In this document: positions 4,132-18,635 of the stretch, one piece after another
Numbering within the stretch: the stretch's first letter is position 1
How the letters are laid out: each line of letters opens with the position of its first letter
Source: Ornithinibacter sp.
Lineage (GTDB): Bacteria; Actinomycetota; Actinomycetes; Actinomycetales; Dermatophilaceae
Direction: 5' to 3'
Assembly: GCA_035458265.1 (NCBI GenBank)
Contig: DATIAB010000251.1
Location: 1-36,704, forward strand
Length of the DNA: 36,704 nt
Notes under the pieces: model-generated
Seen by the model: the letters and a program-made list of their open reading frames with translations, nothing else
Databases searched by the model: none
What the model was told of the DNA's origin: nothing
Translations under genes and position numbers: made by a program

Positions 4132-5064
4132 GTGACCCGTCAGTGGACCGACGAGGCCTGGCTGGCGCAGGTGCACGCGTGGATCGATGGGCGGCTGGAG
4201 GCCCTCGGGGTGACCCGGACGGGCGAGATCGAACAGCCACACGTCGAGGTGTGGTCGACCGTGCTGCGGGTGCCGACGCAGGGTGGGCCGGTGTGGTTCA
4301 AGGCCAACCACGCTCCGCTGGTGCATGAGGCCGCCCTGGTGAACCTGCTCGCGGCGCGGGTGCCTGACCGGGTGCAGGCACCGCTGGCGTGCGACACCGA
4401 TCGCGGCTGGCTGCTCATGAGTGACGCCGGGGACCGGCTGCGAGAGGTCGTGGAGTCGGAGCAGAGCCTGGACGGATGGTTGGAGGTGCTCGACGGCGCA
4501 GCCCGCATCCAGCTCGCCCTCGAGGACGACGTCGACGTGCTGCTCGGCCTCGGCGTGCCGGATCTGCGACTGGACGTGCTGCCGGCGAGGTACGACGCGC
4601 TCATGGACGAGATCGGCGCCGAGCCGCGCTTCCGCAAGGCGGCCGCGCTCGTGAGGGTGCTTGCTCGCGACCTCGCGCCGTACGGCATCCGGGAGACGGT
4701 GCAGCACGACGACCTCCACGACGGGCAGGTGTTCGTGCGAGACGGCAGGCACTGGGTCATGGACTGGAGCGACGCCTGCGTGTCCCACCCGTTCTTCACC
4801 CTGGCGGTGACCCTCGAGGGCGTGATCGCGTGGGGGATCGACGACGTGGAGGCATCGGTCGACGTCACGCCGTTCCGTGATGCGTACCTGGCGCCGTACG
4901 CCAACGCCTACCCGTTGCTCTCGTCCTCTGACCTCATCGAGGCTGCTCGCCTCGCCACGCGCCTGGGCTGGGCGTGCCGGGCGGTCAACGGCCACGTCGT
5001 CGGGCACAACGCCCACACGATCAGGCGGCTGACGATGTTCCTGGACGGTCGCGTCGGCGACTGA
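4132..5064 (+). CDS. Aminoglycoside phosphotransferase/choline-kinase-like protein
   Basis: VWFKAN Lys motif, WLLMSDAG hinge, HDDLHDGQV catalytic loop, MDWSD metal-binding motif. 9 nt after the ERCC4 gene. Confidence 0.8.
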   Translation: MTRQWTDEAWLAQVHAWIDGRLEALGVTRTGEIEQPHVEVWSTVLRVPTQGGPVWFKANHAPLVHEAALVNLLAARVPDRVQAPLACDTDRGWLLMSDAGDRLREVVESEQSLDGWLEVLDGAARIQLALEDDVDVLLGLGVPDLRLDVLPARYDALMDEIGAEPRFRKAAALVRVLARDLAPYGIRETVQHDDLHDGQVFVRDGRHWVMDWSDACVSHPFFTLAVTLEGVIAWGIDDVEASVDVTPFRDAYLAPYANAYPLLSSSDLIEAARLATRLGWACRAVNGHVVGHNAHTIRRLTMFLDGRVGD

Positions 5065-5157
5065 TCCGCACGCGGGCTCGAGGATCGTCGCCGGTGGTGA
5101 TGTGGACGAACTCCATCGGATGATCTCAGGGTCGCGCCGCACTGGTCGGCCGCATGC

Positions 5158-6633
5158 CTAGCGGGCAGGCGTGAGCCATTGCAGCAACGACTCCGACACC
5201 GCGGGCTGTGAGAACAGCGAGCAGTGCCAGGTGCGGCTGGTCGAGCCGAGCTCGAGGCGGTGGCCGGGGGCGATGCGGAACTCGGGGCGCGAGGCGACGG
5301 CACACACGCCGCCGGTGGGAACGACGATGTCGTTCGCCTCCCCCTCGAAGACGCGATCGACCACCCCGTCCACGCCGCGCACGAGCTGAAGCAGGCGCCC
5401 GGTCGGCTCGAACTCGACGTCGATCCCATACTGTTCGGTGCCGTCACCGGCGAGGAAGCCCAGGGTTTTGACGTCAGTGCCGAGTGGCTGCATGGCCACC
5501 AGCCCAGGCAGAGTGCCCACGGCGCCGACAGCCAGCACCTGAACCAGCGTGAGCACCCCTGCCATGACGTCCGTGACGACAGACCACGGACCGTCCGGGA
5601 TGAGGTTGATCATGGTGCTGATCCGGTCAAGGAACTCCTTGAGCCGATCCGGGTTGGCCAGCGCCGTGCCCCCGTTGGGCGTGGCGACGTAGACGATCTT
5701 CCGCACGTCGAGCGGCGCGTCCGGGCCCTGCATCTCTTCCGCCAGCTTGCGGGCGACGAGCCCCCCACGGCTGTGGCTGATGATGTCGACGGGCCAGCGT
5801 CTGCCGGGCGGCAGCAGAGGAAGGAGCCGCTTGACGTTGTCGTCGAGGCTCGCGGAGAGGGTGTGGTGGTCGAAGGCCATCACGTGACCGTCGTAGGCGG
5901 CGTGCAGCTTCATGAACGTTTCGTCGGGCAGCCCCGCGAACGCGCCATGGCTGCTGCTCGCAGTGCCGTGCAGGAACAGGAGCACGCGACCGTCGCCGAT
6001 CCGGCCCCAGTTCGGCAGTGAATCGGACCCTGCCTTCCGGAACGCGTTCGGGGTGAGCCGGCGCAGGCCGTACGGGTGGCTCTTCTCCTCGAAGTGCCGG
6101 GCTACGACCGTCGCCGCGCGCCCGACCAGCTTCTCCACGAGCGGCACCACGAAAACCGACAGGAGCTTCGCCCCGATGGCGGCTGCGAGGCCGCGCTCAC
6201 CGCCCTCCGTGCCCTCGGGCGGATCCACCGCCACGGTGCGATCGACGGTGAAGGCGGCAACCCCTGGCGCCTCGAACTCGGTGCTCGGCAGGTGCCAGGT
6301 CACGACCCCCGCCTCGTCGACCATCATCAGGACCTGCGGTTGCTCAGGCCCCAGGTCGGGCACCCGAAGCGTCATCCCCGGGGCACCATCAGGGGCGCGC
6401 AGGTCCTCGCCGAGCACCGGTGCTTCGGTGGCGCGCACCTCGAGTGCGTACAACTGCTGGAAATCGCTGGTGTCCAGTGCCGCGATGAACGCGTCGGTGG
6501 AGTTGGACTCGGCCCGCGTTCCGCCCAGCACCCCATCCTTGAGCTCCGCCGTTCCGACGAGGTTGGGCGCCTGAAGGGAGACGCCGGGCTGCAGCGTGAC
6601 GGGGCTCGAACTGCCGTTGAGTATCTCTGCCAC
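5158..6633 (-). CDS. Alpha/beta-hydrolase (lipase-like) with about 150-190 aa N-terminal extension
   Basis: FLHGT oxyanion region, nucleophile elbow ISHSRGG (Ser codon 5770-5772), ATPNGGT, NDIVVP (Asp), TWHCS (His). GAGGAG RBS before GTG 6633. Confidence 0.85.
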   Translation of the reverse strand: MAEILNGSSSPVTLQPGVSLQAPNLVGTAELKDGVLGGTRAESNSTDAFIAALDTSDFQQLYALEVRATEAPVLGEDLRAPDGAPGMTLRVPDLGPEQPQVLMMVDEAGVVTWHLPSTEFEAPGVAAFTVDRTVAVDPPEGTEGGERGLAAAIGAKLLSVFVVPLVEKLVGRAATVVARHFEEKSHPYGLRRLTPNAFRKAGSDSLPNWGRIGDGRVLLFLHGTASSSHGAFAGLPDETFMKLHAAYDGHVMAFDHHTLSASLDDNVKRLLPLLPPGRRWPVDIISHSRGGLVARKLAEEMQGPDAPLDVRKIVYVATPNGGTALANPDRLKEFLDRISTMINLIPDGPWSVVTDVMAGVLTLVQVLAVGAVGTLPGLVAMQPLGTDVKTLGFLAGDGTEQYGIDVEFEPTGRLLQLVRGVDGVVDRVFEGEANDIVVPTGGVCAVASRPEFRIAPGHRLELGSTSRTWHCSLFSQPAVSESLLQWLTPAR

Positions 6634-6658
6634 GCGTGCTCCTCGGGTTGGTGCGGGT

Positions 6659-9040
6659 CTACTCGGTTCGGGTCAGGCGCAGCTTGGGGTGTCCGTAGAA
6701 GACGTACGCGAGCGGGGTCGCCGTGCGGACGCCCCCGTCGGTGAAGGACCGGCGCATCAGCCGCAGCGCCTCGCCCACGCTCTCCCCCTGGTCCAGCACG
6801 CGGTTGTAGAAGCCCGAGCTGAGCTCGAGAGCAAGGTCGTCGTCGACGTTCCACAACGGCGCAACGAAGCCACGCGCACCGGACCGGATGAACGCTCCTG
6901 CCAGCCCCCCGTAGCCGTTCAGCGTGTAGGCCGCCGCGCCCACCTGACAGGCATTGAGGAAGACGAATGGCTTGGCGGAGCGGCCAAGGGCGGACCCCTC
7001 GATGGCCAGCGGCCCGAGGAGCCGCCGGTCGTCGAGCAGGATGCCGGTGTGCTGGAGGTTCGTGCTGTCGGCCTGGCCGTGGCAGGCGAAGTGCAGCACC
7101 ACGGGGCGGTAGGGCTGCCCGTGGTGCTCAATCTGGTCATCGAGCAGCCGCGCCACGGAGGACTCGTCGATCGGGACGATGACGGCGTCGTAGGCAAGGG
7201 CCAGTTCCTCCGCCTCGCGCACCGCGCCCGGCAGCGCCTTGACGCCGGCCTTGGTGTAGTCGCCCTTGACGACCGCCATGGTCGGTGCTTCGACCACCTC
7301 CTGCGGCGGGGCGGGTGGCCGGTCCGGCCCGAAGGCCTGTGGCACCGGTGACAGCCAGCGGCCGATCGACCACTGCGCACCAAGCAGCAACGGGCCGTCG
7401 AGCGCCTTCGCGCGTTGACCCGTGATGAACCGGTCAGGCTCGAGGTAGGCGAGCTCCCACGGAACGAAGGGCTCACTGGTCATCAGCAGGAGGGTGGGCA
7501 CAGTGCCCTCCGGGACGGCATCCCAGATTGCATCAAGGAGGCGCCAGAACTGCGTTGGATACGCCGATGCCACCTGCACACCCAACCCGGTGACGTCTGC
7601 GAGGAGCAGAGGCCTGCCCTTGTCAGCGGGAAGCTGGGCCATCAGGGCGTTCGCGAAGGCCTCGGCAGTACCGTCTCGGAACTCGGTGGTGACCCGTTCA
7701 CTGGGCTGAGCCACGTGGTGCGGGGTCGTGAACAGCCACTCGACCTCAGGGCGGCCGGGGGTCGTGCGAATGGTCACGGTGAGGTCGGGGTTGGTGGTGG
7801 GAGCTGCTGCGACGAGCCCTGTCCCACCCCAGCGCGCACCCCGATCGGGAGTGTCGGCGTCTTCGAGGGGCTGATCACCCTCGGGGATCACATCGAGCTC
7901 GCACCACGCGTCGCCGACGATGGCGCCCTCGTGCGCATAGGTGACTCGCAGCCTGCGAGTGGTCCGCGTCGGGACCGGCTGCGCCACGACCGGCACCTTG
8001 ACGGTCCCCGTGGGTGCTTCACGATCCACCACGAGCGGGAACTTGATGCCCTTCGGAAAGTCGAATCCAAGACCCGCGACCTGGACCTCGAACGTCACCG
8101 TGGCCCCCACGCGGAACAGCACGACCGGGCCGGCCCCTGCTGGTTGAACCGGTCGCTCGGACGTGAAGCCCACTTCGAGGTCGAATGGCATTCTCGCTGC
8201 CACGATCGCCGGGGCGTTGGTGCGGGGGAAAGCGTGGAACCGGCCGGTCGACTCCTCAGCAGACAGTCCTGGGGCGGTGTCGGGGTCCGCGGTGCCCTGG
8301 GCCGCGGACGGTGGGTCGCCGTTGTGGGTCACAGACTCTTCGTCAGCGGTCGCTGACTCGTGCCCGTCCTCGCCCTGACCACTCCAGTCGGGGGCGGCCG
8401 GCGCCACGCCGCGTTCGCCCGTTCCGGCTTCGCCTGATCCACTGCCGCCGTATCCGCCCCGGCCAGCGCCGTATTCGTCGTCGGCATATCCAACCCCGTA
8501 TGCGACGCTTCCCCCGTACCCAACACCGTGAAGGTAGCCCCCCTTGGTGATGGCCTCGCCTTCTCCCTGCCACCCCCGCGGGTCGGAAGGGGGCTGCGGC
8601 TCAGGTTCGGGCGCGGCGGGGGGCGATGGTGCGCTGGAATGCGGTGGAGGTGATGAGTGGCCCCCGGAACCCCGGTCACTGCCGTCAGCGATGACCACCC
8701 CGATCACCTCGGGCCCGCGCACGACCACGGTCCCGGCGGACAACTGTGACTCGGCGTCGACGCCGGTCTGCGTCGCCAGATCCACGACCCTCGAGGGGGT
8801 GAGCGTGTCGAGCCGCAGGACGTCACGTAGTGGCGCGTTGCTGTCGGAACGTCGGGCTGCACGCGCCACCAACCCGGCACTGACGACGGTGTAGCGCACA
8901 GGTTGGCAGGTTCGGTCGAGCACGACTGTGCTCGCCTCAGGCGCCAGCGCGGCCACTGCGCGGAGCGCCACGGCGGCGGTCAGGTCGGCATCGAGCAGAA
9001 AAGCCCCAGTGAGACGCAGATCAGATGCAGCCACGTACAT
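6659..9040 (-). CDS. CHAT-domain (clan CD) cysteine protease with long N-terminal region
   Basis: VPWEL, LHFACHG (His codon 7079-7081), VFLNACQVG (Cys codon 6947-6949), APLWNVDD, AYVFYG. Start probably ATG 9040 or GTG 9034 rather than 9181. Confidence 0.88.
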   Translation of the reverse strand: MYVAASDLRLTGAFLLDADLTAAVALRAVAALAPEASTVVLDRTCQPVRYTVVSAGLVARAARRSDSNAPLRDVLRLDTLTPSRVVDLATQTGVDAESQLSAGTVVVRGPEVIGVVIADGSDRGSGGHSSPPPHSSAPSPPAAPEPEPQPPSDPRGWQGEGEAITKGGYLHGVGYGGSVAYGVGYADDEYGAGRGGYGGSGSGEAGTGERGVAPAAPDWSGQGEDGHESATADEESVTHNGDPPSAAQGTADPDTAPGLSAEESTGRFHAFPRTNAPAIVAARMPFDLEVGFTSERPVQPAGAGPVVLFRVGATVTFEVQVAGLGFDFPKGIKFPLVVDREAPTGTVKVPVVAQPVPTRTTRRLRVTYAHEGAIVGDAWCELDVIPEGDQPLEDADTPDRGARWGGTGLVAAAPTTNPDLTVTIRTTPGRPEVEWLFTTPHHVAQPSERVTTEFRDGTAEAFANALMAQLPADKGRPLLLADVTGLGVQVASAYPTQFWRLLDAIWDAVPEGTVPTLLLMTSEPFVPWELAYLEPDRFITGQRAKALDGPLLLGAQWSIGRWLSPVPQAFGPDRPPAPPQEVVEAPTMAVVKGDYTKAGVKALPGAVREAEELALAYDAVIVPIDESSVARLLDDQIEHHGQPYRPVVLHFACHGQADSTNLQHTGILLDDRRLLGPLAIEGSALGRSAKPFVFLNACQVGAAAYTLNGYGGLAGAFIRSGARGFVAPLWNVDDDLALELSSGFYNRVLDQGESVGEALRLMRRSFTDGGVRTATPLAYVFYGHPKLRLTRTE

Positions 9041-9648
9041 CAGTGTGGGGCGGTTCGGGGGGAACACGCAACCGCGCACGCAATGGAATGTGCCCGGCAA
9101 ATGTGCTTTCCGGTACGGACGGCGAGGTCTGAAGAGCACCACTGCCTCGTGCCATCCCAGCCGCCCCCATAAACGGCTCACCCACCGACGAAGAAGGATT
9201 GAGCCGCGTCGGTGCAGCCCTGTTGGACCGGCTCGCCGTCGGCACGTGGTTCCAATTGCCCCGGGAGGAAGTAGTCATTCGGGGGGGCGGTTGTCCGGAG
9301 TGCGCTGGCGGCGAAGGACCAGCGAGTGCCGCGGCGGACCTGGGTTAATGCCCAGGCCACCGGGGTCTCGTGACAATTGGTTCTCCTGCCCGAGGAGCCA
9401 TTCAGTTCGGGGCGTTCGAACGACGATGAATGGCTACTTCTTCGAGACGTGGGGAAGAAGAATGCAGTGTCGTGCCGCGACACGGCTCGTCCAGGAGTGG
9501 CCGCCACTGGCAATCCACTGGACATGACCCGTCGTGGTCTTTGACGCTGAGGCCCCATATCAGAATTCCTCCGACCAGCTGCGCCAGCAGGTGTAGCCTT
9601 CAGAGAACTGACAACCATGCGCCACATGGGCCCTCTCAGGGGGTAGGC

Positions 9649-9927
9649 ATGACATCGACGATGACGATCCCGAGGCCGGGACGGCGCTCGAAGAAGTGGG
9701 TCGTGCCAGGCCGGGTCGCTCTGGTGGTGGCCGTGGTGGTGGTCACAGCAGGCTGTCGGCACGGGGAGGCGGCTGACGACGACCTGCCATCCGTCAGTCC
9801 GTCCACCAGCCCCACCGCGAGCCCCACCATGAGCAGCACCACGCCGCAGAGCTCGAGCACGTCGACGCCGCCGACCCAGACTCCGACCTTCACGCCGCCT
9901 CAGCCGACCGACCTGTCCGGACCGTGA
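9649..9927 (+). CDS. Small Ser/Thr/Pro-rich putative lipoprotein (92 aa)
   Basis: AGGGGG before ATG 9649; basic N-region, hydrophobic stretch, lipobox-like TAGC, then an S/T/P low-complexity tail. Stop overlaps the next start (GTGA). Confidence 0.65.
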   Translation: MTSTMTIPRPGRRSKKWVVPGRVALVVAVVVVTAGCRHGEAADDDLPSVSPSTSPTASPTMSSTTPQSSSTSTPPTQTPTFTPPQPTDLSGP

Positions 9928-10949
9928 TGTCCCGTCGCGCGAGCGTGACCGCGGGTCTCGCCGCGCTCACGACAGTGGTTGCCCTGACACTGGCAGGCGC
10001 GGGCTGGCTCGTGCCGGGCTTGCGTCAGGACGCCGTGCTGGTTGCCACCCTCGGGACCGTCGCGCGCAATGACATGGGGCCCGGGGAGCTGGATGCCGCA
10101 GGCTCCTCGAACCACACCAACTACCTCGTCGTCGGCACGGACCAGCGGCATGTCCCCGTCGGAGCGCGCCGCGACATCCGCGGCGAGCGCGCCGACGTGA
10201 TCATGCTCTGGTCCGTCAGGGCAGACGGCGGAACACTCGTCCTGAGCATCCCTCGAGACCTGCGTGTCAACGTGCCCGGCCATGGAGACGGGAAGTTGGG
10301 AGGGGCCCTGGAGTACGGCTCGGCCCCGCTGGTCGACGCGGTCCGGGCGCTGACCGGGGCCCCGGTCCACCACTACGTCGAGCTCGAGTTCTCGGCCTTC
10401 GTCGCGGCAGTCGACCGCGTGGGAGGGCTGGAAGTCGACCTCGCCTCGCCTGCCCGCGACCGGGGCACCGCGCTCAACCTGCCGGGCGGCACGCAGACGC
10501 TCGGAGGCACCGAGGCGCTGGCCTTCGTCCGGTCGCGGACCCACGAGGAGCTGGTCGAGGGCCATTGGGTCAAGGACGACTCGGGAGACCTCGGGCGGAT
10601 TGGGAGACAGCACGTCCTGCTCTCCAGCGTGACTGACGCGATCCGGCGCTGCGGGGGGCTCCAGTGCGTCGAGCTGCTCGCCGACCTGGGTGGGGCCGTC
10701 ACCCTGGACCGGACGTTCACCACGGACGACTTGCGCGCGCTCGCGACCGCGGTGACCGGCGAGGCATCCCGGGTGTCCACGGCCGTTCTCCCCACGCATC
10801 CGGCGCGGGCACCGGATGACTCGATGTCACCCTTCCCACCGGCGCACCTGGGCAGTGTCGGCTACCGCCACCTGGACCACCCGGCGGCCCGCCCACTGCT
10901 CGAACAACTCCTTCCGGCTCCAGGGCCTCGGGGGGCGACCGGGTCATGA
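9924..10949 (+). CDS. LCP (LytR-CpsA-Psr) family glycopolymer transferase
   Basis: N-terminal TM anchor; NYLVVGTD, RADVIML, SIPRDL, ALAFVRSR, DLGRIGRQ motifs. Confidence 0.9.
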   Translation: MMSRRASVTAGLAALTTVVALTLAGAGWLVPGLRQDAVLVATLGTVARNDMGPGELDAAGSSNHTNYLVVGTDQRHVPVGARRDIRGERADVIMLWSVRADGGTLVLSIPRDLRVNVPGHGDGKLGGALEYGSAPLVDAVRALTGAPVHHYVELEFSAFVAAVDRVGGLEVDLASPARDRGTALNLPGGTQTLGGTEALAFVRSRTHEELVEGHWVKDDSGDLGRIGRQHVLLSSVTDAIRRCGGLQCVELLADLGGAVTLDRTFTTDDLRALATAVTGEASRVSTAVLPTHPARAPDDSMSPFPPAHLGSVGYRHLDHPAARPLLEQLLPAPGPRGATGS

Positions 10950-13900
10950 CTCGTGTCGACGAGGTCGGCTCAGGGGCAGGTCCCGAGCCCAGCCAGGAGG
11001 CCCCCTGGCGTGCACAGCGCTTCGACGTCTTCGTCGTGCGAGCAGAGGAGGACCGCGACTGGGTCGAGGGCTTCCTCCTGGCTGGCCTGCGGGAAGCCGG
11101 AGTGCGCTGCCTCGACGAGTCCCAGTTCCCTCTCGGACCCCCTGAGCTCAAGATGTTTGCAGACGCGGTGGAGCAGTCCGATCGCGTCCTGCTCGTCGTG
11201 TCGCCCGCCTTCCTCAACGACTCGCGAGCTGGGTTCGTCAAGTGGCTGGCTCTGCACTTCGGCGACGAGCAGTCGACGTGGCCAGTCCTCTCGCTGATCC
11301 GCGAGCCCGTCGAGCGGTTACCTCCCGAACTGGGTCTGGGGCGCCGCCTGGACCTGACCGTGGAGGACCGCTGGGAAGCCGGCCTGCAGCGCCTCGTCGC
11401 GGACCTGCATCGACGGGTGCCTGAACGCACCAGCCAGCCGGAGTGTCCCTACCCCGGCCTGCTGTCCTACACGGGTGAGGACCAAGAACGTTTCCCGTTC
11501 TGCGGTCGGGACGCCGAGATCGATGAGGTGCTGGAGCGACTGCGCGTTCATCCGGTGCTCGCTGTCATCGGCACCTCGGGGAGCGGGAAGTCGTCTCTGC
11601 TGCACGCCGGAGTCCGGCCTCGCCTCACGCGTAGCCACCAGGTCGTCAGGGTCCGTCTCGGCCGAACCCCGACGGCGAACCTCGCTGCGGCACTGACCAG
11701 GGGAGGCCAAACCAGCCAACCGATCGCCCTCGTCGTGGACCAGTTCGAGGAGTTGTTCACGCTCTCTCATCTCCACGCCGACGATTCCGAGGTGCAGTCG
11801 TTCTGCGATGAGCTCCTCGCCCTGTTGGCGGGTTCACCGTCGGACGGACTTCGCTGCATCATCGCCATTCGTGCCGACTACTACCCGCAGCTGATGACCT
11901 GCCCGCTCTGGGAGAGGATCCGGGAACACCGTTTCGAGCTCCTGCCGCTCCGCGGTGAGCAGCTTCGAAAGGCCATCCAGGCGCCGGCGAGTGCGGTCGG
12001 GGTGCACATCGAAGCAGCACTCGTCGAGGCAGTCGTGCGTGACGCGGAGGGTGAACCCGGCAGTCTTCCGCTTGTTCAGGAGACACTGGTGTCGCTGTGG
12101 GGGCATCTGCGACGCCGCTTCCTTCCACTCAGCGCGTACGACGCGTTGATCCTGCCCGGACGGTCGTACGGAGAGGCTCCTCGGACCGGCCTCCAGGTCG
12201 CCTTGGCACGTCACGCGGAGGCGACCTTGTCCTCACTGGACCAGGCCGACCAGGTCACGGCGCGGCGCATCTTCCTGCGGCTTGTCCAGCTCATGCAAGG
12301 TCGTGAGGACGTCCGTCGTCCGCAGCGACGCCGCGAGCTGGAGAGCATCGACAGCAGCTCCGAGTCGGTCGACCGGGTGCTCCAGAAACTCATCGACGCG
12401 CGCCTCATCACACCCACGGCCGACGAAGAGACGGGGGACCCCCGCGAGACCATTCTCGACCTCGCCCACGAGGCGATCATCTCCGGCTGGCCCTCACTGC
12501 GCGCCTGGATCACCGAGCGGCGTTCCGCCGAGGTCTTTCGGCGCAAGCTGGAGGCGAGCGCCTCCGAGTGGGCGCGCTGGGGGCGCGGCAGTGGCGGGCT
12601 GCTCGACGAGGTCGAGCTCACGGAGGCCCGAACCTGGCTCGACGGGCCCGACGCCAGCGAACTCGGTGCGAGCCAGGACGTCATCGACCTCGTGGCGGCC
12701 AGTCGCAGGTCCTTGGACGCGGAGCGAGCTCGCGAGGCGCGACAGAATCGAGTGTTTCGGGTCCTCAGCGCGGCGCTCGCCGTGCTGCTCGTGGCCGTGG
12801 GGGTCGCCGCGATCATCGCCGTCCGAGAGTGGAACGAGGCCGAGGAGGGCCAGCGGGTGGCTCGCTCCGGAGAGCTCGGGGCATCGGCTGAGAGGCTTCC
12901 GCCCGAGCAGCTCGACCGTGCCCTGCTCCTCGGCGTGGAGGCACTGTCGAGCCGGCGCACGGCGCTGTCGGTGGGAGGTGCCCTCGCGTCCCTGAACTCC
13001 AACCCTCGCGTCATGCGCATGTTCCATGCGGATGCCGCCCAGCTTTGCGTTGCGGTCACGAGCGACGGCCAGACGGGGGTGACCGGTGGGCAGGACGGCG
13101 TCGTCCGTGTCTGGGACCTCGGCAAGGGTGGCCCGGGGCGACAACTGGCCGTCTTGGACGGAGAGGTCCGCAGCATCGCCATCAGTCCGGACGGCCGGAC
13201 GGTCGCTGCCAGCTCGAGCGGGGGCACCGTCGGCCTGTGGGACCTCGCGACAGGGACCCGCGTCCCGTGGACCCTCCCCGGCGCGCAGCCGGGCGACCTC
13301 GCGCACCAGGGTTCCGTCCGGTCCGTCGCCTTCAGCCCGGACGGTTCCTTGCTCGCGACCGCCGGTCAGGACGGCGTCGTTATCGTCCGGGAGCCCACCA
13401 CCGGCAGCCCGCGGCAGGTCATCGAGGGGTACAGGGACTGGCTCAACGCGGTCACCTTCACGCCCGACGGCACGCTGCTCGTCGCTGCCGGAGGCCGGAC
13501 GGAGGGGCGAAGTGTGGACAGGCGGATCCTCCTGTGGGACGTCGGCGCAGGCCGGCTGCGTGCCCAGTTGCCGGGACACGACGACGCAGTGCGCGCCCTC
13601 TCCGTCAGCCCCGACGGCAAGACGCTCGCCTCGGCCGGCGCAGAGGGGAGCATCAAGATCTGGTCTCTGCCCGAGGGCCGGCTGATGCATCAGCTGGACG
13701 GTCACAAGGATCGCGTCTTCGGGGTTGCCTTCTCACCGGACGGGACCCTCCTCGCGTCCGCTGGCCGCGACCACACCGTCCGTCTCTGGGACCCCGCAAC
13801 TGGGGCGCCGACGACGGATCCCCTTCGAGGCCACGGCGACTCGGTGCGCGGCTTGGCCTTCGCGGGCACCGGACAGGTCCTCTCCGCGGGCACCGACGGC

Positions 13901-14959
13901 CGGCTCGTCCTATGGCACGCGGGCACGGGTGAGCAGGCTCGACTCGCCCTGCCGTTGGGCGACCAGGCCGTCACGACTCGCGCCCTGGGCGTCGATCCCT
14001 CAGGAACGCTCGTCGCGACCGGTGACGACTCCGGCCGGGTGGTCGTCCGGTGGGCGGACGATGGTCGACCGACCGGGGTGGTCGTGGACACGGAAGGGCC
14101 GGTCAGTGACGTCGTCCTCGGCCCCGACTCCATGCTCGTCACCGCGAACTACGCGGGTCAGCTGCGGGTCTGGGATGCGATCAGCGGGGCTCCGCGGACG
14201 CCGTCGATACAAACGGGGGATGGCTCCTTGGTCCTGGCCGTCTCGGCAGACGGTCAGACCATCGCGACGGGCGGCGACACGAACGTCATCCGGCTCTGGG
14301 ACCAGGGCCTGCGCCAGACCGCCCAGCTCGTTGGCCACCGCAACTGGGTCCGCGCGCTCGCCTTCATCCCGCGGGACGAGGGTCAGGGTGGGGGTGCGGG
14401 CGAGGCCCTGGTCTCCGCCGGAGCCGACGGCATGGCCTTCCTCTGGAAGAGCCTCGACACGACTGCCCGAGCCACCGCCCTGGGGCAGCGCTCCAGCCCC
14501 ATGGAGTCGCTCGCCATCAGCCCTGACGGAAAGACGATCGCGACGGGCAACGACGAGGGCCAGGTCCTCCTGTGGGACGCGACCCGCTCCGATGTATCCC
14601 CCGGCGATCAGACGCCTCTGTCGGGCCACGACGGCACGGTGACGGGCATCTCGTACAGTCCCTCGGGCGACTGGATCATGACTGCGGACCTCGGCGGCAC
14701 GGTGAGGATGTGGGCGGCACAGTCCCGACTCGAGCCGTGGGGCACCCTGGGGCGCGTCGGCGAGCTGGCGGCTGTCGTCGTGGTCTCCGACCAGCAGGCG
14801 TTCACTGTCGGGAAGGGAGGCCCGGCCCGTTGGACTCTGGAAGAGGAGCAATGGACTCGGCTCGCCTGCGCTGTCGCAGGCCGCAACCTCGGCGCGGAGG
14901 AGGCCTCGCGTTATGGCTTCCCGCGGCCGCCGCGCACCTGTGCCGGGGCCTCACCATGA
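10946..14959 (+). CDS. TIR - STAND (nSTAND1-like) NTPase - TM - WD40 repeat protein (NLR-like)
   Basis: N-terminal TIR (FDVF..DRDWV..VVSPAF); CPYPGL, FCGRD, Walker A GTSGSGKSS (aa 209), Walker B VVDQFEELF, IRADYY, LPLV, HEAII; hydrophobic helix at aa about 606-626; more than ten GH...FSPDG...WD repeats. Confidence 0.92.
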   Translation: MTRVDEVGSGAGPEPSQEAPWRAQRFDVFVVRAEEDRDWVEGFLLAGLREAGVRCLDESQFPLGPPELKMFADAVEQSDRVLLVVSPAFLNDSRAGFVKWLALHFGDEQSTWPVLSLIREPVERLPPELGLGRRLDLTVEDRWEAGLQRLVADLHRRVPERTSQPECPYPGLLSYTGEDQERFPFCGRDAEIDEVLERLRVHPVLAVIGTSGSGKSSLLHAGVRPRLTRSHQVVRVRLGRTPTANLAAALTRGGQTSQPIALVVDQFEELFTLSHLHADDSEVQSFCDELLALLAGSPSDGLRCIIAIRADYYPQLMTCPLWERIREHRFELLPLRGEQLRKAIQAPASAVGVHIEAALVEAVVRDAEGEPGSLPLVQETLVSLWGHLRRRFLPLSAYDALILPGRSYGEAPRTGLQVALARHAEATLSSLDQADQVTARRIFLRLVQLMQGREDVRRPQRRRELESIDSSSESVDRVLQKLIDARLITPTADEETGDPRETILDLAHEAIISGWPSLRAWITERRSAEVFRRKLEASASEWARWGRGSGGLLDEVELTEARTWLDGPDASELGASQDVIDLVAASRRSLDAERAREARQNRVFRVLSAALAVLLVAVGVAAIIAVREWNEAEEGQRVARSGELGASAERLPPEQLDRALLLGVEALSSRRTALSVGGALASLNSNPRVMRMFHADAAQLCVAVTSDGQTGVTGGQDGVVRVWDLGKGGPGRQLAVLDGEVRSIAISPDGRTVAASSSGGTVGLWDLATGTRVPWTLPGAQPGDLAHQGSVRSVAFSPDGSLLATAGQDGVVIVREPTTGSPRQVIEGYRDWLNAVTFTPDGTLLVAAGGRTEGRSVDRRILLWDVGAGRLRAQLPGHDDAVRALSVSPDGKTLASAGAEGSIKIWSLPEGRLMHQLDGHKDRVFGVAFSPDGTLLASAGRDHTVRLWDPATGAPTTDPLRGHGDSVRGLAFAGTGQVLSAGTDGRLVLWHAGTGEQARLALPLGDQAVTTRALGVDPSGTLVATGDDSGRVVVRWADDGRPTGVVVDTEGPVSDVVLGPDSMLVTANYAGQLRVWDAISGAPRTPSIQTGDGSLVLAVSADGQTIATGGDTNVIRLWDQGLRQTAQLVGHRNWVRALAFIPRDEGQGGGAGEALVSAGADGMAFLWKSLDTTARATALGQRSSPMESLAISPDGKTIATGNDEGQVLLWDATRSDVSPGDQTPLSGHDGTVTGISYSPSGDWIMTADLGGTVRMWAAQSRLEPWGTLGRVGELAAVVVVSDQQAFTVGKGGPARWTLEEEQWTRLACAVAGRNLGAEEASRYGFPRPPRTCAGASP

Positions 14960-15906
14960 GGAGCGCCCGGTGCGCGCGAGGCGTCATCGCCCTGGCGGCC
15001 GTCGTCCTGGGTGGCCCGTGCCTCGGAGTCCTGGCCGGGTGCACCTCGGGGACAGCGCCCGGGGAGGGGATCCAACGGGAGTCCGGGGGGGTGGTGGGAA
15101 GTCGCTTCCACGAAGGCATTCCGTATGCCGGTGACAGGGTTCTCGACATTCACGTGCCGTCACGGCAGGGCTGGCCGAACCCAGCCACCGTACCCGTGGT
15201 GATCCTGCTCCATGGCTGCTGCGGTGACCGATCGGACCTGGGCAAACTGTCCGAGGCGCTCGCCCGAGCACAGCTTGTCGTCTTCAACGCGGACTGGGCG
15301 GGGCTGGACGCAGACGCCACCTTTCCCGCCGCCTACGAGGACGTCGCCTGCGCCATCGACTTTGCGCGGCAGCACGCGCCTGAGTTCGGTGGCGATCCTG
15401 AGCGGCTTGTCGTCGCCGGGTGGTCCGACGGGGCGATGGCCGCCGCGGCGGTTGCAGCAGCACCGGAGAGATTCGATGGTCAGGGGTGCTTGGCCGAGAA
15501 GGCCACAGACGCAGTGGCGCCCGCCGCTGTCGCGGGGATCGGTGGCTTCTACGGCTGGACCGCGCCCGTGGCCGGGGCGTATGTGACACCACGAACGAGC
15601 CGGTTCTTCGGGGGCGGTCCGGAGGAGGCCGCCGAGAACTGGGCGGCGGCAACCCCGTACAGCTGGCTGGCCTCCGCGCCGTCGACCCTACTGCTCGCCG
15701 GGACCACCGATCCGCTGGTCGACGACGCGCGGCGGTACGCCGAGGCACTGCGTCGGGCCGGGAGGTCCGTCCGCGTCGTCGCGATCCCGCCCGACGGTGA
15801 CCAAACCCTGATATCGCCGCGCACGTCGGAAGGTCGGCGCGTGGTCGCGGAGATCGCCGCCCTCGGAGCGGCGACGACACAGCTGACGTCACCACACAGG
15901 AGGTAG
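14956..15906 (+). CDS. Alpha/beta-hydrolase-fold lipoprotein (esterase-like, possibly inactive)
   Basis: ATGA overlap with the upstream stop; lipobox LAGC; LLHGCCG, GWSDG nucleophile elbow, TDPLV. The expected catalytic His position reads GDQ. Confidence 0.8.
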   Translation: MRSARCARGVIALAAVVLGGPCLGVLAGCTSGTAPGEGIQRESGGVVGSRFHEGIPYAGDRVLDIHVPSRQGWPNPATVPVVILLHGCCGDRSDLGKLSEALARAQLVVFNADWAGLDADATFPAAYEDVACAIDFARQHAPEFGGDPERLVVAGWSDGAMAAAAVAAAPERFDGQGCLAEKATDAVAPAAVAGIGGFYGWTAPVAGAYVTPRTSRFFGGGPEEAAENWAAATPYSWLASAPSTLLLAGTTDPLVDDARRYAEALRRAGRSVRVVAIPPDGDQTLISPRTSEGRRVVAEIAALGAATTQLTSPHRR

Positions 15907-15908
15907 AG

Positions 15909-17153
15909 ATGGTCATGCCGACCATGGAGTCCGCTCACGCGCTCATCATCGGGATCGCCGACTATGGTCACGTTCCCAAACTGCCGCCCACGGTCCTCGA
16001 CGACGCACGTGACATTGCGAAGGTCCTGGTGGACCCACAGCACTGTGGCTACCCACCCAAGAACGTGCAGCTGCTCCTCGACGGCGAGGCGACGCGGGAA
16101 GCCATCCTGGGAGCCATGGCGCAGTTGAGCGAACGCTCCGACCCGGAGTCGTCGGTTCTCATCTACGTCTCGAGTCATGGCGCTCGAGTGCCGGGCGGAC
16201 CCCACGAAGGTGAGTACCTGCTCCCCGTCGACAGCGTGCCTGGGGACGGCTTTGTGGATACCGCGATCTCAGGAGACGAGTTCACGCAGGCCTTGAGGGC
16301 GATCCCGGCCCGGAAGGTGCTCGTGATCTTCGACTGCTGCCACTCAGGCGGTATCGGCCAGCCCAAAGACGCTTCGGAGCAGGCGTTCAGGGCCGGCTTG
16401 TCGGACAGTTACTACGCGCACCTCGCCGCAGGCCGAGGGAGGGCGATCCTCTCCTCATCGCGCGACACGGAGTTCTCCTACGTGCTGCCGGATGCGCCGA
16501 ACAGCCTTTTCACGCAGCACCTGCTGGCCGGTCTGCGGGGAGGCATTGCCAGCGAGGACGGCCTCATCCGGGTCTTCGACCTCTTCGAGTTCGTCCAGCC
16601 CAGGGTCACCCACGACCGGCACGACCAGCACCCGATCTTCAAGTCCGACCTCGAGGAGAACTTCCCTGTCGCGCTCTATGGGGGCGGCACCAAAGGCGTC
16701 GTCGCCAAGGACGATGACGGCTTTCGCTTCGACGCGTACGTGAGCTATGCGGACCAGCCACCTGACTCGACGTGGGTGTGGAGCACCCTCGTGCCGCGGC
16801 TGGAGCGCGAAGGCCTGCGAGTCGCTGTGTCCGGGGACTCCTCGGACCCTGGGGTGCCCCTCGTCGTGAGCGCCGAGCGCGGGATCTCGCAGGCGAAGCG
16901 GACGTTGGTCGTGTTGTCCCGGGCCTATTTCGAGGACACGAAGACGGACTTCGAGAACGTGCTTGCTCAGTCCCTGGGGGTCCAGGACCGGTCGTACCGG
17001 CTGCTGCCTCTGGTCATCGAGCCCTTGGACTCCATCGAGCTACCGCTTCGCCTCAGCATGCTCACGACACTGGACCTGACCCGCCCGGGGCAGGGAGAGC
17101 GCCAGTGGGACCGTCTCACCAGGGCGCTGAAGGGGCCGCTGCCCCGCCAGTAG
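15909..17153 (+). CDS. Caspase-like peptidase (C14) fused to C-terminal TIR domain
   Basis: AGGAGG RBS; ALIIGIADY, SSHG (H90), FDCCHSG (C144), SLFT, QHP; then TIR FDAYVSY..D..WV..LVPRLE..G..VLSRAY..FE. Confidence 0.92.
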   Translation: MVMPTMESAHALIIGIADYGHVPKLPPTVLDDARDIAKVLVDPQHCGYPPKNVQLLLDGEATREAILGAMAQLSERSDPESSVLIYVSSHGARVPGGPHEGEYLLPVDSVPGDGFVDTAISGDEFTQALRAIPARKVLVIFDCCHSGGIGQPKDASEQAFRAGLSDSYYAHLAAGRGRAILSSSRDTEFSYVLPDAPNSLFTQHLLAGLRGGIASEDGLIRVFDLFEFVQPRVTHDRHDQHPIFKSDLEENFPVALYGGGTKGVVAKDDDGFRFDAYVSYADQPPDSTWVWSTLVPRLEREGLRVAVSGDSSDPGVPLVVSAERGISQAKRTLVVLSRAYFEDTKTDFENVLAQSLGVQDRSYRLLPLVIEPLDSIELPLRLSMLTTLDLTRPGQGERQWDRLTRALKGPLPRQ

Positions 17154-17221: not shown

Positions 17222-17566
17222 TCAGCGATGCTCCGAGTTCCGCGCCACCTTTCGGATGCCGGCGTCCCCGTCGTCCGACAGCTGACTGATCACGCTTCGT
17301 GCCTGCTCGGGCGGGAGATTCCGCGCGGCCGCCGCGGCGGCCACCCGTACCACCGGATCCTCGGAATCTGCGGCAGTCGCCACGGTCTCTGCTCCGCCCT
17401 GGATCAGGCTGGCGGCGTAGGCGGCCTTCGAGGCGAGCATCACATCGTCTCCTCGGACGAGCTGATCGAGATGTGGCAGCGCCTCTTCCCCGAGTTCGGC
17501 TGCGGCCGCGTAGTCTGGTTCGTCCGGGTCCAGGACCTTTCGGACTTCCTCCATCGATACCGTCAC
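17222..17566 (-). CDS. Small HEAT-repeat protein
   Basis: AGGAGG RBS; helical repeats EALPHLDQL, DSEDPVVRVAAAAA, LSDDGDAGIRKVA. 9 nt after the metalloprotease stop. Confidence 0.75.
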   Translation of the reverse strand: MTVSMEEVRKVLDPDEPDYAAAAELGEEALPHLDQLVRGDDVMLASKAAYAASLIQGGAETVATAADSEDPVVRVAAAAAARNLPPEQARSVISQLSDDGDAGIRKVARNSEHR

Positions 17567-17575
17567 GTGAACCTC

Positions 17576-18409
17576 CTAGAGATTCCGGGTGTAGTCGCTG
17601 GCCAGCATCTTCGCGACCTCGGTGCCAACGATGTCCGGGGGCGGGTTGGTGATGTTTCCCGTGCCATTGCGGGTCATCAACCGATTGTTGTCATCCACGT
17701 GGCGAAGGCTCAACACATGGCCCGCCTCGTGGGCGAGCGTCCATTGAGTCGCCCCTTGAGCCATCACCAGCGCTGGACGGTTGTCGGGATGGGCGGCGCA
17801 TCCGTTGAACGGTGGCACCGTGGAGCGAACAAAGTATGCACAGATGTCGTCGGCCCCCGCGTTGTTCCGATTGGCGAAGAGGTCGTCCTGCTCGTCGGTG
17901 GTCTGACCCAACAGGCATTGGCCGACGTCGACGTCGTTCAGGTCGGGCAGGTCGAGGGTCTCGGTGCTGGCAAGCTGGACGTTGATCCCCACCGCTTCGT
18001 AGAGCTCCCGCATTCGCTGGACGGCCGTGTTCACACCCACATTCGGGGCTGTGAGGATCTTGACGTGAAGCCTGACGGTTGGACCCGGTGCACCTGCGAA
18101 GCCGCGTGGCCACCCCCAGTTGGTGATGGATGCCGGGTAGCCGGCGTCGACGGTGCCGGCGCCGGTGTCGCCGCGGGTGACCCGGATGTATCGGTTGCCT
18201 TTGAAGAAGTAGCACTTCGACCCGGAGTACAGGGCGGCGTCGATTCCGTTGCTGCCGAATCCGGCGGGCCAGTTCCAGTTGGATATGGGTGCTGGGTAGC
18301 CGGCGTCGACGGTGCCGGCGCCGGTGTCGCCGCGCGTCACCCGAAGATATCGGTTACCGTCGAAGAAGTAACACTTTGACCCCGAGAACAATGCTGCGTC
18401 AACTGTCAT
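17576..18409 (-). CDS. Hemopexin-repeat metzincin zinc metalloprotease
   Basis: Two hemopexin-like repeats (DAAL..GSKCYFF.GNRY.R...VDAGYP..I..W); zinc motif HEAGHVLSLRH and Met-turn NRLM; GGAG before ATG 18409; no signal peptide. Confidence 0.85.
   Translation of the reverse strand: MTVDAALFSGSKCYFFDGNRYLRVTRGDTGAGTVDAGYPAPISNWNWPAGFGSNGIDAALYSGSKCYFFKGNRYIRVTRGDTGAGTVDAGYPASITNWGWPRGFAGAPGPTVRLHVKILTAPNVGVNTAVQRMRELYEAVGINVQLASTETLDLPDLNDVDVGQCLLGQTTDEQDDLFANRNNAGADDICAYFVRSTVPPFNGCAAHPDNRPALVMAQGATQWTLAHEAGHVLSLRHVDDNNRLMTRNGTGNITNPPPDIVGTEVAKMLASDYTRNL
18135..18403. repeat. Intragenic duplication, 159-bp (53-codon) period
   Basis: 41 identical nt at 18135-18175 and 18294-18334, with looser similarity beyond. 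Encodes the two hemopexin blades. Confidence 0.9.
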
Positions 18410-18635
18410 CTGCGTCTCCGGACGCCGGTGAGCCAACACGACGTGGCTCACAATGAATCAAACAACCAGTATTGCCCTGGCTTGCTCTGCCGTCAACCGA
18501 TCTTCGCGGCAACAATCTTGGCGCGCGTGGGCGGCAGCTGCAGTCGACACGTGACGCGTGCAGTTCGCCGTCGTCCGGATGGATGCGGTGGGCGAGGCGC
18601 AACGCTTCGGGCTTCGCGGCCCCACACGTGCTTGC

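What the first reader, a model, noticed from the sequence alone, without database searches (positions are those of the whole stretch)
9649..17153. Candidate TIR-linked apoptosome-like system: TIR-STAND-TM-WD40 receptor plus caspase-TIR in one coupled operon
Seen: five genes joined by GTGA/ATGA overlaps (9924, 10946, 14956) and a 2-nt gap. The STAND protein begins with a TIR domain, and the C14 peptidase (intact H90/C144) ends with a clearly related TIR. Established: Apaf-1 (CARD-NB-ARC-WD40) recruits caspase-9 through homotypic adaptor domains; TIR domains self-associate; bacterial STAND NTPases (Avs, NACHT) and C14 peptidases act in anti-phage defence. Inference: ligand binding by the WD40 propellers oligomerises the STAND, whose TIR recruits and activates the caspase-TIR, causing cell death or dormancy. 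I do not recognise this five-gene layout as a named system.
Basis: partly seen in the sequence, partly recalled or inferred. Interest (0 to 1): 0.88.

Follow-up and report, generated by a model that had tools for sequence, protein, structure and literature searches.

The report
Toll-like bacterial receptor and caspase pair
This bacterium carries a five-gene cassette whose core, found in many phyla, pairs a predicted membrane-spanning immune-type receptor with a caspase-like protease; both carry Toll/MyD88-like TIR domains, and because the receptor's TIR lacks the catalytic glutamate it likely works as a docking scaffold that would recruit and switch on the protease, much as Toll-like receptors recruit MyD88.

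Summary
Observation confirmed: five coupled genes, TIR-nSTAND1-TM-WD40 and caspase(H90/C144)-TIR, TIRs 31% identical. The pair is conserved: 13 of 17 well-flanked caspase-TIR loci from several phyla have a TIR-nSTAND1 gene nearby, all 17 some TIR gene; 0 of 89 TIR-less caspase controls do. New here: the TIR catalytic glutamate is kept in 120/120 caspase TIRs and lost in 120/120 receptor TIRs; both TIRs score best against animal TLR/MyD88; 115/120 receptors have a membrane helix, so the WD40 sensor probably faces outside. That is Toll-like rather than apoptosome-like. The two TIRs form separate lineages (heterotypic) and co-vary only weakly. The other three genes (lipoprotein, LCP transferase, His-less esterase) are absent from the other phyla's loci but kept in order in three genomes of other genera of this family. 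The logic matches Aravind's predicted EAD-coupled nSTAND1 systems, whose supplement lists the receptor architecture; I found no paper on TIR as the coupling domain. This scan earlier saw caspase-TIR beside a TIR-FGE gene on other DNA. New variant of a known kind; interest 0.66.

The parts
9649..9927 (+). g1: small predicted lipoprotein (lipobox-like TAGC, Cys36) with a Ser/Thr/Pro-rich tail ending FTPPxPTDxSGP; possible substrate of the LCP enzyme (inference)
   Evidence: Sequence; 24 Ser/Thr and 12 Pro in the 56 residues after Cys36; relatives in L174 (49%), L182 (38%) and, read by eye in one frame, L176
9924..10949 (+). g2: LytR-CpsA-Psr (LCP) glycopolymer phosphotransferase with an N-terminal hydrophobic anchor
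   Evidence: PF03816 E 8e-28; TIGR00350 above cut-off; D73, R89, D91, R111, D112, R203, R205, R225, R228 invariant in 3 of 3 aligned copies
10946..14959 (+). g3: TIR-nSTAND1-TM-WD40 receptor, 1337 aa
11027..11398 (+). g3 TIR (residues 28-151), TLR-like, Val98 in place of the catalytic Glu
   Evidence: TIR_2 E 2e-11; best solved relatives TLR15/TLR2, Hydra TRR-2, TLR1/6/10; Glu in 0 of 120 relatives
11447..12586 (+). g3 nSTAND1 ATPase (residues 168-547); Walker A G209-K215-S216, Walker B D265-Q-F-E268-E269
   Evidence: PF20703 E 4e-91; Walker A in 120 of 120, DQxEE-type motif in 119 of 120
12761..12817 (+). g3 predicted single transmembrane helix (606-624), basic residues on the N-terminal side
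   Evidence: Hydropathy >=1.8 after the ATPase in 115 of 120 relatives against 2 of 120 inside the ATPase; mean K/R about 5.2 before, 2.4-2.6 after
13016..14956 (+). g3 WD40 region (about 600 residues, the length of two propellers) with a C-terminal cysteine pair C1308/C1332; predicted extracytoplasmic sensor
   Evidence: 9 PF00400 stretches; two or more Cys in the last 45 residues of 76 of 90 WD40-bearing relatives; least conserved part among distant relatives, 30% against 50% for the ATPase
14956..15906 (+). g4: predicted lipoprotein/secreted HSL-type alpha/beta hydrolase that keeps Ser157 and Asp252 but has Gln283 where the catalytic His is expected; probable pseudo-esterase or ligand-binding protein
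   Evidence: PF20434, PF07859; esterase structures as relatives; among 62 relatives Ser157 57, Asp252 57, column 283 Gln 40/Leu 13, His nowhere conserved in that region; Cys88, Cys89, Cys132 in 62 of 62, Cys178 in 61
15909..17153 (+). g5: caspase-TIR; C14 protease (10-252, H90/C144) plus MyD88/TLR-like TIR (277-403) that keeps Glu349
   Evidence: H90, D142, C144, H145 invariant in 131 sequences; Glu349 in 120 of 120; best solved relative of the TIR is human MyD88, E 5e-9 over the whole domain; model pLDDT 80.6, nearest folds MALT1 paracaspase and TLR1 TIR

Best explanation
g3 and g5 are the conserved core of a two-protein signalling module in which a predicted single-pass membrane receptor likely detects an outside or envelope cue with its WD40 domain, would then oligomerise through its ATPase, and would use its glutamate-less TIR as a scaffold to recruit the caspase-TIR protein, likely switching on the protease and causing growth arrest or death. 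SHOWN: architecture, intact ATPase and protease motifs, gene pairing across phyla, the strict Glu asymmetry, the TLR/MyD88-type TIR sequences, sensor swapping (WD40, FGE, TPR) on a constant TIR-ATPase-TM base. PREDICTED from sequence: membrane topology. INFERRED by analogy: oligomerisation (STAND family), TIR-on-TIR nucleation (TLR2/MyD88), proximity activation of the protease (caspase-9, MALT1; recalled), lethal outcome (type IV Thoeris caspase). The caspase's own TIR may add NAD cleavage once assembled. In this actinobacterial version three envelope proteins travel with the core; they most likely make or present the surface cue (LCP modifying the Ser/Thr-rich lipoprotein, the His-less esterase as co-receptor or decoy), which is the weakest step.
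For: Pairing: 21 of 33 distinct caspase-TIR loci hold a TIR-nSTAND1 gene and 27 some other TIR gene; of 17 with at least 3 kb on both sides, 13 and 17; 0 of 89 control loci of TIR-less caspases (at least 7.5 kb, from 117) hold any TIR. Order, strand and spacing vary, so the link survives rearrangement. Among 72,556 plasmids the only full-length match to each protein lies on the same plasmid, two genes apart. Glu column: 120/120 versus 0/120 in the protein lists, 30/31 versus 0/24 in the wider loci. Profiles of both TIR types rank TLR and MyD88 structures first (45-69 bits for the caspase TIR) above plant (40 or less) and bacterial NADase TIRs (33 or less). TM helix 115/120 with positive-inside bias and terminal Cys pair. 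Related caspases carry EAD1, EAD10 or TCAD2 adaptors (Atlas structure rows), and CASPASE+EAD10 next to EAD10+nSTAND1+TM+BetaPropeller is listed in the PMC8195603 supplement, so TIR sits in an adaptor's slot. The one whole locus with a close caspase but no TIR (L019) has no STAND in 14 kb (a single case).
Against: The two TIRs are not each other's closest relatives within a locus: C-S identity 30.4% within and 28.1% between loci, against 43% and 38% within each type; they form separate groups on the tree; Mantel r falls from 0.61 to 0.23 without five Thiothrix-like loci and is lower than caspase-versus-ATPase (0.88, 0.79), so no partner-specific TIR co-evolution is shown. 4 of the 17 well-flanked loci lack a TIR-nSTAND1 fusion and pair with other TIR proteins. 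Many loci are kin, the 120+120 proteins are close relatives, and the controls are mostly Bacteroidota, not phylum-matched. The cassette's neighbours include no known defence system, and three envelope genes fit a non-lethal role as well. No substrate or ligand is known.
Confidence: 0.55

Rival explanations
1. The main output is enzymatic: receptor clustering switches on the caspase's own Glu349 TIR, which depletes NAD or makes an ADP-ribose signal that activates the protease in cis, a fused and receptor-gated version of type IV Thoeris logic.
For: Glu349 in 120 of 120 and Ser279 invariant. In type IV Thoeris a TIR product activates a caspase (10.1101/2024.10.24.620036, passages). TLR4-type TIRs with the Glu can make cADPR (10.64898/2026.04.20.719644, passages).
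Against: TLR2 and IL-1R9/10 keep the Glu yet showed no activity (same paper). g5 has no domain after the protease other than the TIR to bind a signal. This reading still needs receptor-driven assembly, so it differs from the best one only in the output.
Confidence: 0.15
2. The module is a non-lethal envelope-signalling device: the receptor monitors cell-surface state and the protease clips one regulator; the LCP, lipoprotein and esterase-fold protein remodel or report on the wall.
For: Three of the five genes are envelope proteins kept in order in four genomes. An LCP that glycosylates the protein encoded just upstream is known in Actinomyces oris (PMC6381275, passages). Peptidoglycan-binding TPR or C1-peptidase genes sit in or beside several cyanobacterial loci. 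The nearest protease fold, MALT1, is a signalling paracaspase (role recalled).
Against: Patchy spread (3 of 400 family genomes, 0 of 400 class and 0 of 400 phylum samples), different flanking genes, carriage on a conjugative plasmid and swapped sensors among close Thiothrix relatives are typical of conflict systems. No transcription regulator is conserved in the cassette.
Confidence: 0.18
3. One reading: a cytosolic apoptosome whose WD40 propellers bind an intracellular phage protein; the hydrophobic helix is buried or only tethers the protein.
For: STAND sensors tested so far bind phage proteins inside the cell, and bacterial Apaf-1-like WD40 STANDs are described (10.64898/2026.01.04.697583, passages).
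Against: A lone 19-residue helix of hydropathy 2.9 between ATPase and sensor, conserved in 115 of 120 relatives whatever the sensor, with positive-inside bias and a terminal Cys pair; the PMC8195603 supplement also annotates this architecture with a TM.
Confidence: 0.07
4. The two TIR genes are independent defence genes that gather in the same islands and do not act on each other.
For: Spacing reaches several kb in some loci, strands differ in some, and 4 of 17 well-flanked loci lack the TIR-nSTAND1 fusion.
Against: All 17 have a TIR gene of this type nearby against 0 of 89 controls; many pairs lie within 500 bases; a receptor TIR without Glu (0 of 120) has no effector activity of its own; reciprocal unique co-location on a plasmid.
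Confidence: 0.05

Closest known systems
EAD-coupled nSTAND1 conflict systems (Kaur et al. 2020 PMC7159879; 2021 PMC8195603), e.g. CASPASE+EAD10 with EAD10+nSTAND1+TM+BetaPropeller in Okeania; EAD8-nSTAND1-FGE with EAD8-trypsin (PMC10907252)
   Same: Same ATPase clade, TM, propeller or FGE sensor, a shared domain on receptor and on a neighbouring caspase, many hosts filamentous. TIR+nSTAND1+TM+BetaPropeller and TIR+nSTAND1+FGS are listed in the 2021 supplement. Predicted, not tested.
   Different: The shared domain is a TIR, which those papers' text treats as an NAD-processing effector or signal maker; the string CASPASE+TIR occurs in the 12 searched supplement files only as one TERNS3 fusion. 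The two copies are separate lineages with opposite catalytic status, against the EAD rule that adjacent copies are closest relatives.
Toll-like receptor / MyD88 signalling
   Same: Predicted single-pass receptor with a repeat ectodomain and a cytoplasmic TIR; a second TIR protein that carries the downstream activity; TIR sequences closest to TLR1/2/6/10/15 and MyD88 among solved structures; TLR2 TIR nucleates MyD88 TIR assemblies (PMC11394124, abstract start only).
   Different: Reverse polarity (TIR at the N-terminus), an ATPase between TIR and membrane, WD40 instead of LRR, protease fused directly instead of a death domain recruiting kinases. Here the adaptor-like partner keeps the Glu, whereas MyD88 has Gln at that column. 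Similarity ranking is not a phylogeny.
Apaf-1 / caspase-9 apoptosome and bacterial Apaf-1-like STANDs with fused caspase (10.64898/2026.01.04.697583)
   Same: Adaptor-STAND-WD40 receptor plus separately encoded C14 protease with a related adaptor domain.
   Different: TIR instead of CARD, nSTAND1 instead of NB-ARC, membrane helix, adaptor at the protease's C-terminus, metacaspase/paracaspase-type protease.
Type IV Thoeris (TIR-caspase; 10.1101/2024.10.24.620036)
   Same: TIR and C14 protease in one operon.
   Different: There a short stand-alone catalytic TIR makes N7-cADPR for a caspase with another C-terminal domain; here the sensor-side TIR lacks the Glu, is fused to a STAND receptor, and the caspase has its own TIR.
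CARD-NLR bacterial gasdermin systems (10.1101/2023.05.28.542683)
   Same: The tested bacterial case of an NLR-like protein and a protease that both carry a related adaptor domain.
   Different: Death-fold CARD, two proteases and a separate effector such as gasdermin; no such effector is conserved here.

Membership tests
EAD-coupled STAND system (Kaur 2020/2021) | One copy of a shared domain on the core NTPase, another on an enzyme effector, often in the adjacent gene | tested here: met
   definition read in PMC7159879 section 30
EAD-coupled STAND system (Kaur 2020/2021) | Shared domain is small with no enzymatic features | tested here: not met
   TIR fold; receptor copy lacks the Glu (0/120) but caspase copy keeps it (120/120)
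EAD-coupled STAND system (Kaur 2020/2021) | [quoted passage not shown] | tested here: not met
   Caspase TIRs and receptor TIRs form separate groups; 30% between types against 43% and 38% within
EAD-coupled STAND system (Kaur 2020/2021) | Enrichment in multicellular bacteria | tested here: inconclusive
   Many loci from filamentous cyanobacteria, Thiothrix and Chloroflexota, but also Acidobacteriota, Nitrospirota and this actinobacterial family; no statistical test
EAD-coupled STAND system (Kaur 2020/2021) | The two copies bind each other | not tested
Apaf-1/caspase-9 apoptosome | CARD on receptor and caspase; NB-ARC ATPase | tested here: not met
   TIR_2 and nSTAND1 are the Pfam hits
Apaf-1/caspase-9 apoptosome | Soluble cytosolic receptor with WD40 sensor | tested here: not met
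   WD40 present, but behind a predicted TM helix in 88 of 90 WD40-bearing relatives; prediction only
Apaf-1/caspase-9 apoptosome | C14 protease with His-Cys dyad | tested here: met
   H90 and C144 invariant in 131 sequences
Type IV Thoeris | Short stand-alone TIR with catalytic Glu as signal maker | tested here: not met
   Sensor-side TIR is fused to a STAND receptor and has Val98
Type IV Thoeris | Caspase activated by N7-cADPR | not testable with these tools
   Needs biochemistry; g5's C-terminal domain is a TIR
Avs / TIR-STAND single-gene defence | Active effector domain fused to the STAND N-terminus | tested here: not met
   Receptor TIR lacks the Glu in 120 of 120 and 24 of 24; no Avs model among PADLOC hits
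CARD-NLR gasdermin systems | Death-fold CARD on protease and NLR, two proteases, gasdermin or other effector gene | tested here: not met
   One C14 protease, TIR adaptors; no such family among Pfam and PADLOC hits of the window ORFs scanned; gasdermin was not searched for with its own model
EACC1-caspase two-gene system | EACC1 gene upstream and EACC1-type caspase | tested here: not met
   NF047832 108.5 bits, under the cut-off of 140; upstream gene is an alpha/beta hydrolase
TLR/MyD88 pathway (works-like comparison) | Single-pass receptor with ectodomain and cytoplasmic TIR of the TLR type | tested here: met
   Topology predicted; TIR ranking; order of domains reversed and ATPase inserted
TLR/MyD88 pathway (works-like comparison) | LRR ectodomain and death-domain adaptor | tested here: not met
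   WD40 sensor, caspase fused to the TIR
TLR/MyD88 pathway (works-like comparison) | Receptor TIR nucleates a partner TIR assembly | not testable with these tools
   Needs purified domains

The most novel reading that the evidence does not exclude
Bacteria have a true counterpart of Toll-like receptor to MyD88 signalling: a cell-surface receptor family with exchangeable outside sensors whose catalytically dead, TLR-type TIR nucleates an assembly of a MyD88-type TIR fused to a caspase, and this bacterial clade is the nearest relative of the animal scaffolding TIRs, so non-enzymatic TIR signalling arose in bacteria. In Actinobacteria a His-less esterase would serve as co-receptor and an LCP-modified lipoprotein as the guarded surface mark.
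Probability: 0.27. Interest if true: 0.9.

Novelty: new variant of a known kind. Interest (0 to 1): 0.66.

Why it matters
In the papers read here, bacterial TIR domains in defence act as NAD-consuming enzymes, while the adaptor role is described for animals. This family offers a compact two-gene test of whether bacteria also use TIRs as scaffolds, with a built-in prediction (receptor TIR dead, caspase TIR live) and cultured carriers (Calothrix brevissima NIES-22, Planktothrix sp. PCC 11201, Thiothrix eikelboomii ATCC 49788). It also bears on an open question: what membrane-spanning STAND receptors sense outside the cell, since the STAND sensors tested so far bind phage proteins in the cytoplasm. 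The actinobacterial cassette supplies candidate ligand-side components.

Tried and rejected
No RNA holder was listed for the cassette; this says nothing on expression. The single-sequence model of g4 was unusable (pLDDT 38), so the missing His rests on alignment only. Promoter/terminator scan: nothing above shuffles. PADLOC gave only partial domain hits (a caspase model, a HEAT-ARM model on the WD40 part); these are HMM hits, system rules and DefenseFinder were not run. Viral contigs: 75 loci, all remote caspases at 21-35% identity, no orthologue. No full-length g5 orthologue in 60 near relatives, 400 class and 400 phylum genomes. Strict TIR-TIR co-evolution: not shown. EACC1, type IV Thoeris, Avs and CARD-NLR membership rejected (see membership test). 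Literature: nine searches; eight concerned the TIR-caspase-STAND pairing and none listed a paper describing it; two searches returned mostly unrelated papers. PMC7685563 (Burroughs and Aravind 2020) is not held, file 13 of the PMC8195603 supplement was not searched, only occurrences 1-32 of 83 of TIR+nSTAND1 and all 16 of TIR+nSTAND1+TM were viewed, bioRxiv supplements (notably the 589 STAND clades of 10.64898/2026.01.04.697583) could not be seen, and subscription journals are missing, so prior mention cannot be excluded.
Full report
Observation. All five genes are present at the stated coordinates with coding-type GC3 of 0.81-0.85 and the stated junctions. Pfam gives an LCP domain for g2, TIR_2 + nSTAND1 + WD40 for g3, an HSL-type alpha/beta hydrolase for g4 and Peptidase_C14 + TIR_2 for g5. 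g1 has no family; it shows a lipobox-like TAGC and a Ser/Thr/Pro-rich tail. H90 and C144 are as stated. The two TIRs align at 31% identity. The window is a whole contig of a 2.5 Mb, 72% complete assembly; that the host is an actinobacterium is inferred from its GC content and from the source names of the closest caspase-TIR proteins (Intrasporangium, Dermatophilaceae).

The core is two genes. The caspase-TIR family is large: 1247 relatives at E 1e-30 or better among 7997 scored, the best 120 all 63% or more identical and all with both domains. Scans of genome and metagenome contigs returned 43 loci with close relatives (L001-L020, L091-L113; 39-64% identity) and 117 with remote, TIR-less caspases. 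With HMMs built from the window's domains, 38 of the 43 have caspase and TIR in one frame; five of these were dropped as duplicates, leaving 33. Of the 33, 21 have a TIR-nSTAND1 gene in the fetched DNA and 27 have some second TIR gene; many of the misses are short contigs. Of the 17 with at least 3 kb on both sides, 13 have TIR-nSTAND1 and all 17 a TIR partner (L015 and L110 are near-copies; several others are kin). The four exceptions pair with TIR-FGE (L003, L004), TIR-AAA_35 (L007), or a separate TIR gene in front of a TIR-less nSTAND1-WD40 (L010). None of 89 control loci of 7.5 kb or more has a TIR; three have a STAND. The controls are mostly Bacteroidota, so they are not phylum-matched. 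An independent check: in 72,556 plasmids, 1 of 15 matches to TIR+ATPase and 1 of 11 matches to g5 cover the whole query, and both are on AP018209.1, separated by one TPR gene. Hosts include cyanobacteria, Chloroflexota, Acidobacteriota, Nitrospirota and Thiothrix.

The five-gene layout is a real actinobacterial variant. g1, g2 and g4 have no match in the loci from other phyla. In the window's family, 3 of 400 genomes carry g5 and the same 3 of 300 carry g4; all three, from three other genera, keep the order g1-g2-g3-g4-g5 at about 55-85% protein identity for g2-g5 (one is split over two contigs that overlap by 127 bases; g1 in G194 was recognised by eye), and DNA similarity is confined to window 9552-17153. 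No copy was found in 400 class-wide and 400 phylum-wide genomes or in 33 congeners. This is the pattern of a mobile cassette. Source names place both a g3 relative and a g4 relative in Geodermatophilus sp. URMC 60.

The two TIRs differ in a fixed way. At the column that aligns with the Glu of TLR alpha-C (CQYEL) and with Gln in MyD88, caspase TIRs have Glu in 120 of 120 proteins and receptor TIRs in 0 of 120 (Thr, Val, Ile, Ala, Leu; Val98 in g3). In the more diverse loci the counts are 30 of 31 and 0 of 24; the other TIR partners have Glu in 1 of 9. So the receptor cannot be the signal-making TIR of a Thoeris system or the NADase effector of an Avs-like protein, yet its TIR is conserved (45% to distant relatives against 50% for the ATPase). 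A binding role is the simplest reading. Against solved structures, g5's TIR matches human MyD88 best (E 5e-9, whole domain) and g3's TIR matches TLR15/TLR2, Hydra TRR-2 and TLR1. Profiles of 15 and 14 sequences rank TLRs and MyD88 above plant TIRs and above AbTir, TcpB and other bacterial NADases. This is a similarity ranking on a biased library, not a tree.

Results against a simple homotypic model. On a 62-row tree the caspase TIRs and the receptor TIRs form separate groups. Across 21 pairs, within-locus identity between types is 30.4% against 28.1% between loci (permutation p 1e-4, inflated by kin); the Mantel correlation of the two TIR sets is 0.61, and 0.23 without five Thiothrix-like loci, lower than caspase against ATPase (0.88, 0.79). 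Both caspase-TIR subtypes pair with both main receptor-TIR subtypes. The genes are inherited together, but partner-specific TIR co-evolution is not shown; a weakly specific, heterotypic contact like TLR-MyD88 would fit, and so would contact through other domains.

Topology. 115 of 120 receptor relatives have a 19-residue window of hydropathy 1.8 or more within 200 residues after the ATPase (2 of 120 inside the ATPase), with about twice as many Lys/Arg before as after; 76 of 90 WD40 forms end in a cysteine pair. TIR and ATPase are therefore predicted inside and the sensor outside. The sensor is exchangeable: 90 of 120 have WD40, others FGE or TPR, and close Thiothrix relatives differ in sensor. 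Walker A is intact in 120 of 120. The protease model (pLDDT 80.6) is nearest to MALT1 paracaspase and metacaspases; invariant acidic residues D32, D142 and E188 suggest cleavage after basic residues (inference from metacaspases, recalled).

Accessory genes. g2 keeps the LCP Arg and Asp motifs (their role from PMC6381275 passages, and recall). In Actinomyces oris the LCP gene lies directly downstream of the gene whose product it glycosylates, the same order as g1-g2; this is an analogy only. g4 belongs to a 62-member family that keeps Ser157 and Asp252 but has Gln or Leu where HSL esterases have the catalytic His about 30 residues after the Asp (position recalled for EST2; alignments end just before it), has HGCCG in place of the usual oxyanion motif, and four near-invariant cysteines. 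It is probably a secreted binding protein rather than an esterase; 21 of 62 show a lipobox pattern. All three accessory proteins are on the same side of the membrane as the predicted sensor.

Mechanism. Most likely (0.55): an outside or envelope cue binds the sensor, the ATPase oligomerises under the membrane, the dead TIRs form a seed on which caspase-TIR assembles, and the clustered protease cleaves cell proteins, with NAD cleavage by its own TIR as a possible second output. Rivals: signal through the caspase's own TIR enzyme (0.15), non-lethal envelope signalling (0.18), cytosolic apoptosome (0.07), unlinked island neighbours (0.05). No step from ligand to outcome was tested.

Prior knowledge. 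PMC7159879 (passages, section 30, two supplement files searched with no hit) defines EAD coupling. PMC8195603 (passages, section 7, supplement searches) coins nSTAND1, counts TIR among NAD-processing effectors, and its supplement lists TIR+nSTAND1+FGS, TIR+nSTAND1+TM+BetaPropeller and CASPASE+EAD10 next to EAD10+nSTAND1+TM+BetaPropeller; in the rows viewed no caspase-TIR neighbour appears. PMC10907252 (passages) describes EAD8-nSTAND1-FGE with EAD8-trypsin. 10.64898/2026.01.04.697583, 10.1101/2024.10.24.620036, 10.1101/2023.05.28.542683, 10.64898/2025.12.03.692087, 10.64898/2026.04.20.719644, 10.64898/2026.09.21.753143 and PMC7075850 were seen as passages; none of the passages describes this pair. 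PMC11394124 was seen as a listing with the start of its abstract. Earlier AI notes of this scan record a caspase-TIR with TIR-FGE in another genome and TM helices in related caspase-STAND-WD40 proteins; they are leads, not support.

Verdict. A real, conserved and mobile module. It works, most likely, like an EAD-coupled or Toll-like receptor-protease system, but fails two of the defining EAD features and is not a member of any tested system. New variant of a known kind; the Glu asymmetry, the TLR/MyD88-type TIRs and the outside-facing sensor with three envelope partners make it unusually testable. Interest 0.66.

Noticed in passing
window 5158-9181 (-) and 1-5142 (-): Divergent from the cassette: a CHAT protease with a weak TCAD7 hit, a DUF7379 lipase-like gene, and a large FHA-FtsK protein cut by the contig end. 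The CHAT/DUF7379 pair has a second copy on contig C48 of the same genome. Not shared with the three related cassettes.
   Followed up: partly
window 17222-18451 (-): Hemopexin-repeat metallopeptidase and a small HEAT-repeat gene converge on the cassette's end; not present beside the related cassettes.
   Followed up: partly
L001:11659-14532, L011:11557-14094, L006:15803-18679, L262:10302-13334: A peptidoglycan-binding TPR gene lies between caspase-TIR and receptor in two cyanobacterial loci (a TPR gene at the same place on the Calothrix plasmid); a peptidoglycan-binding C1 peptidase follows the receptor in L006. Accessory genes in different phyla may point to the cell wall.
   Followed up: no
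L015, L016, L018, L020, L108, L109: Thiothrix-like loci have a second stand-alone caspase upstream (Pfam-checked in L015 and L108) and swap the receptor's sensor between FGE and TPR; a gene after the caspase-TIR in L016 has a weak GH19 hit.
   Followed up: partly
L003/L004:5147-9887 and L007:6965-9853: Caspase-TIR loci without nSTAND1 carry a superfamily 1 helicase (with a PLD-like domain in L003) beside TIR-FGE or TIR-AAA_35 partners.
   Followed up: partly
L014:5322-6142; L097:1-1353; L001:16446-18235: Broken copies: L014's caspase gene lacks most of its TIR, L097/L098 have an in-frame stop inside the caspase domain, and L001's first receptor has its WD40 part split over several frames while a second receptor copy follows.
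   Followed up: no
L176:8941-9504; L008:15873-17138; L092:6732-7958: A Trypco2 adaptor gene directly follows the caspase-TIR in G194; patatin genes lie next to the receptor in two loci.
   Followed up: no
G000:C289:8789-11932: A second nSTAND1-WD40 gene (30% identity) in the same genome, with no TIR match at the threshold used.
   Followed up: no
plasmid hits H17-H22: Rhizobial, Skermanella and Enterobacter plasmids carry caspase domains 40-45% identical to g5's with no match to the TIR part; their C-terminal partners were not examined.
   Followed up: no
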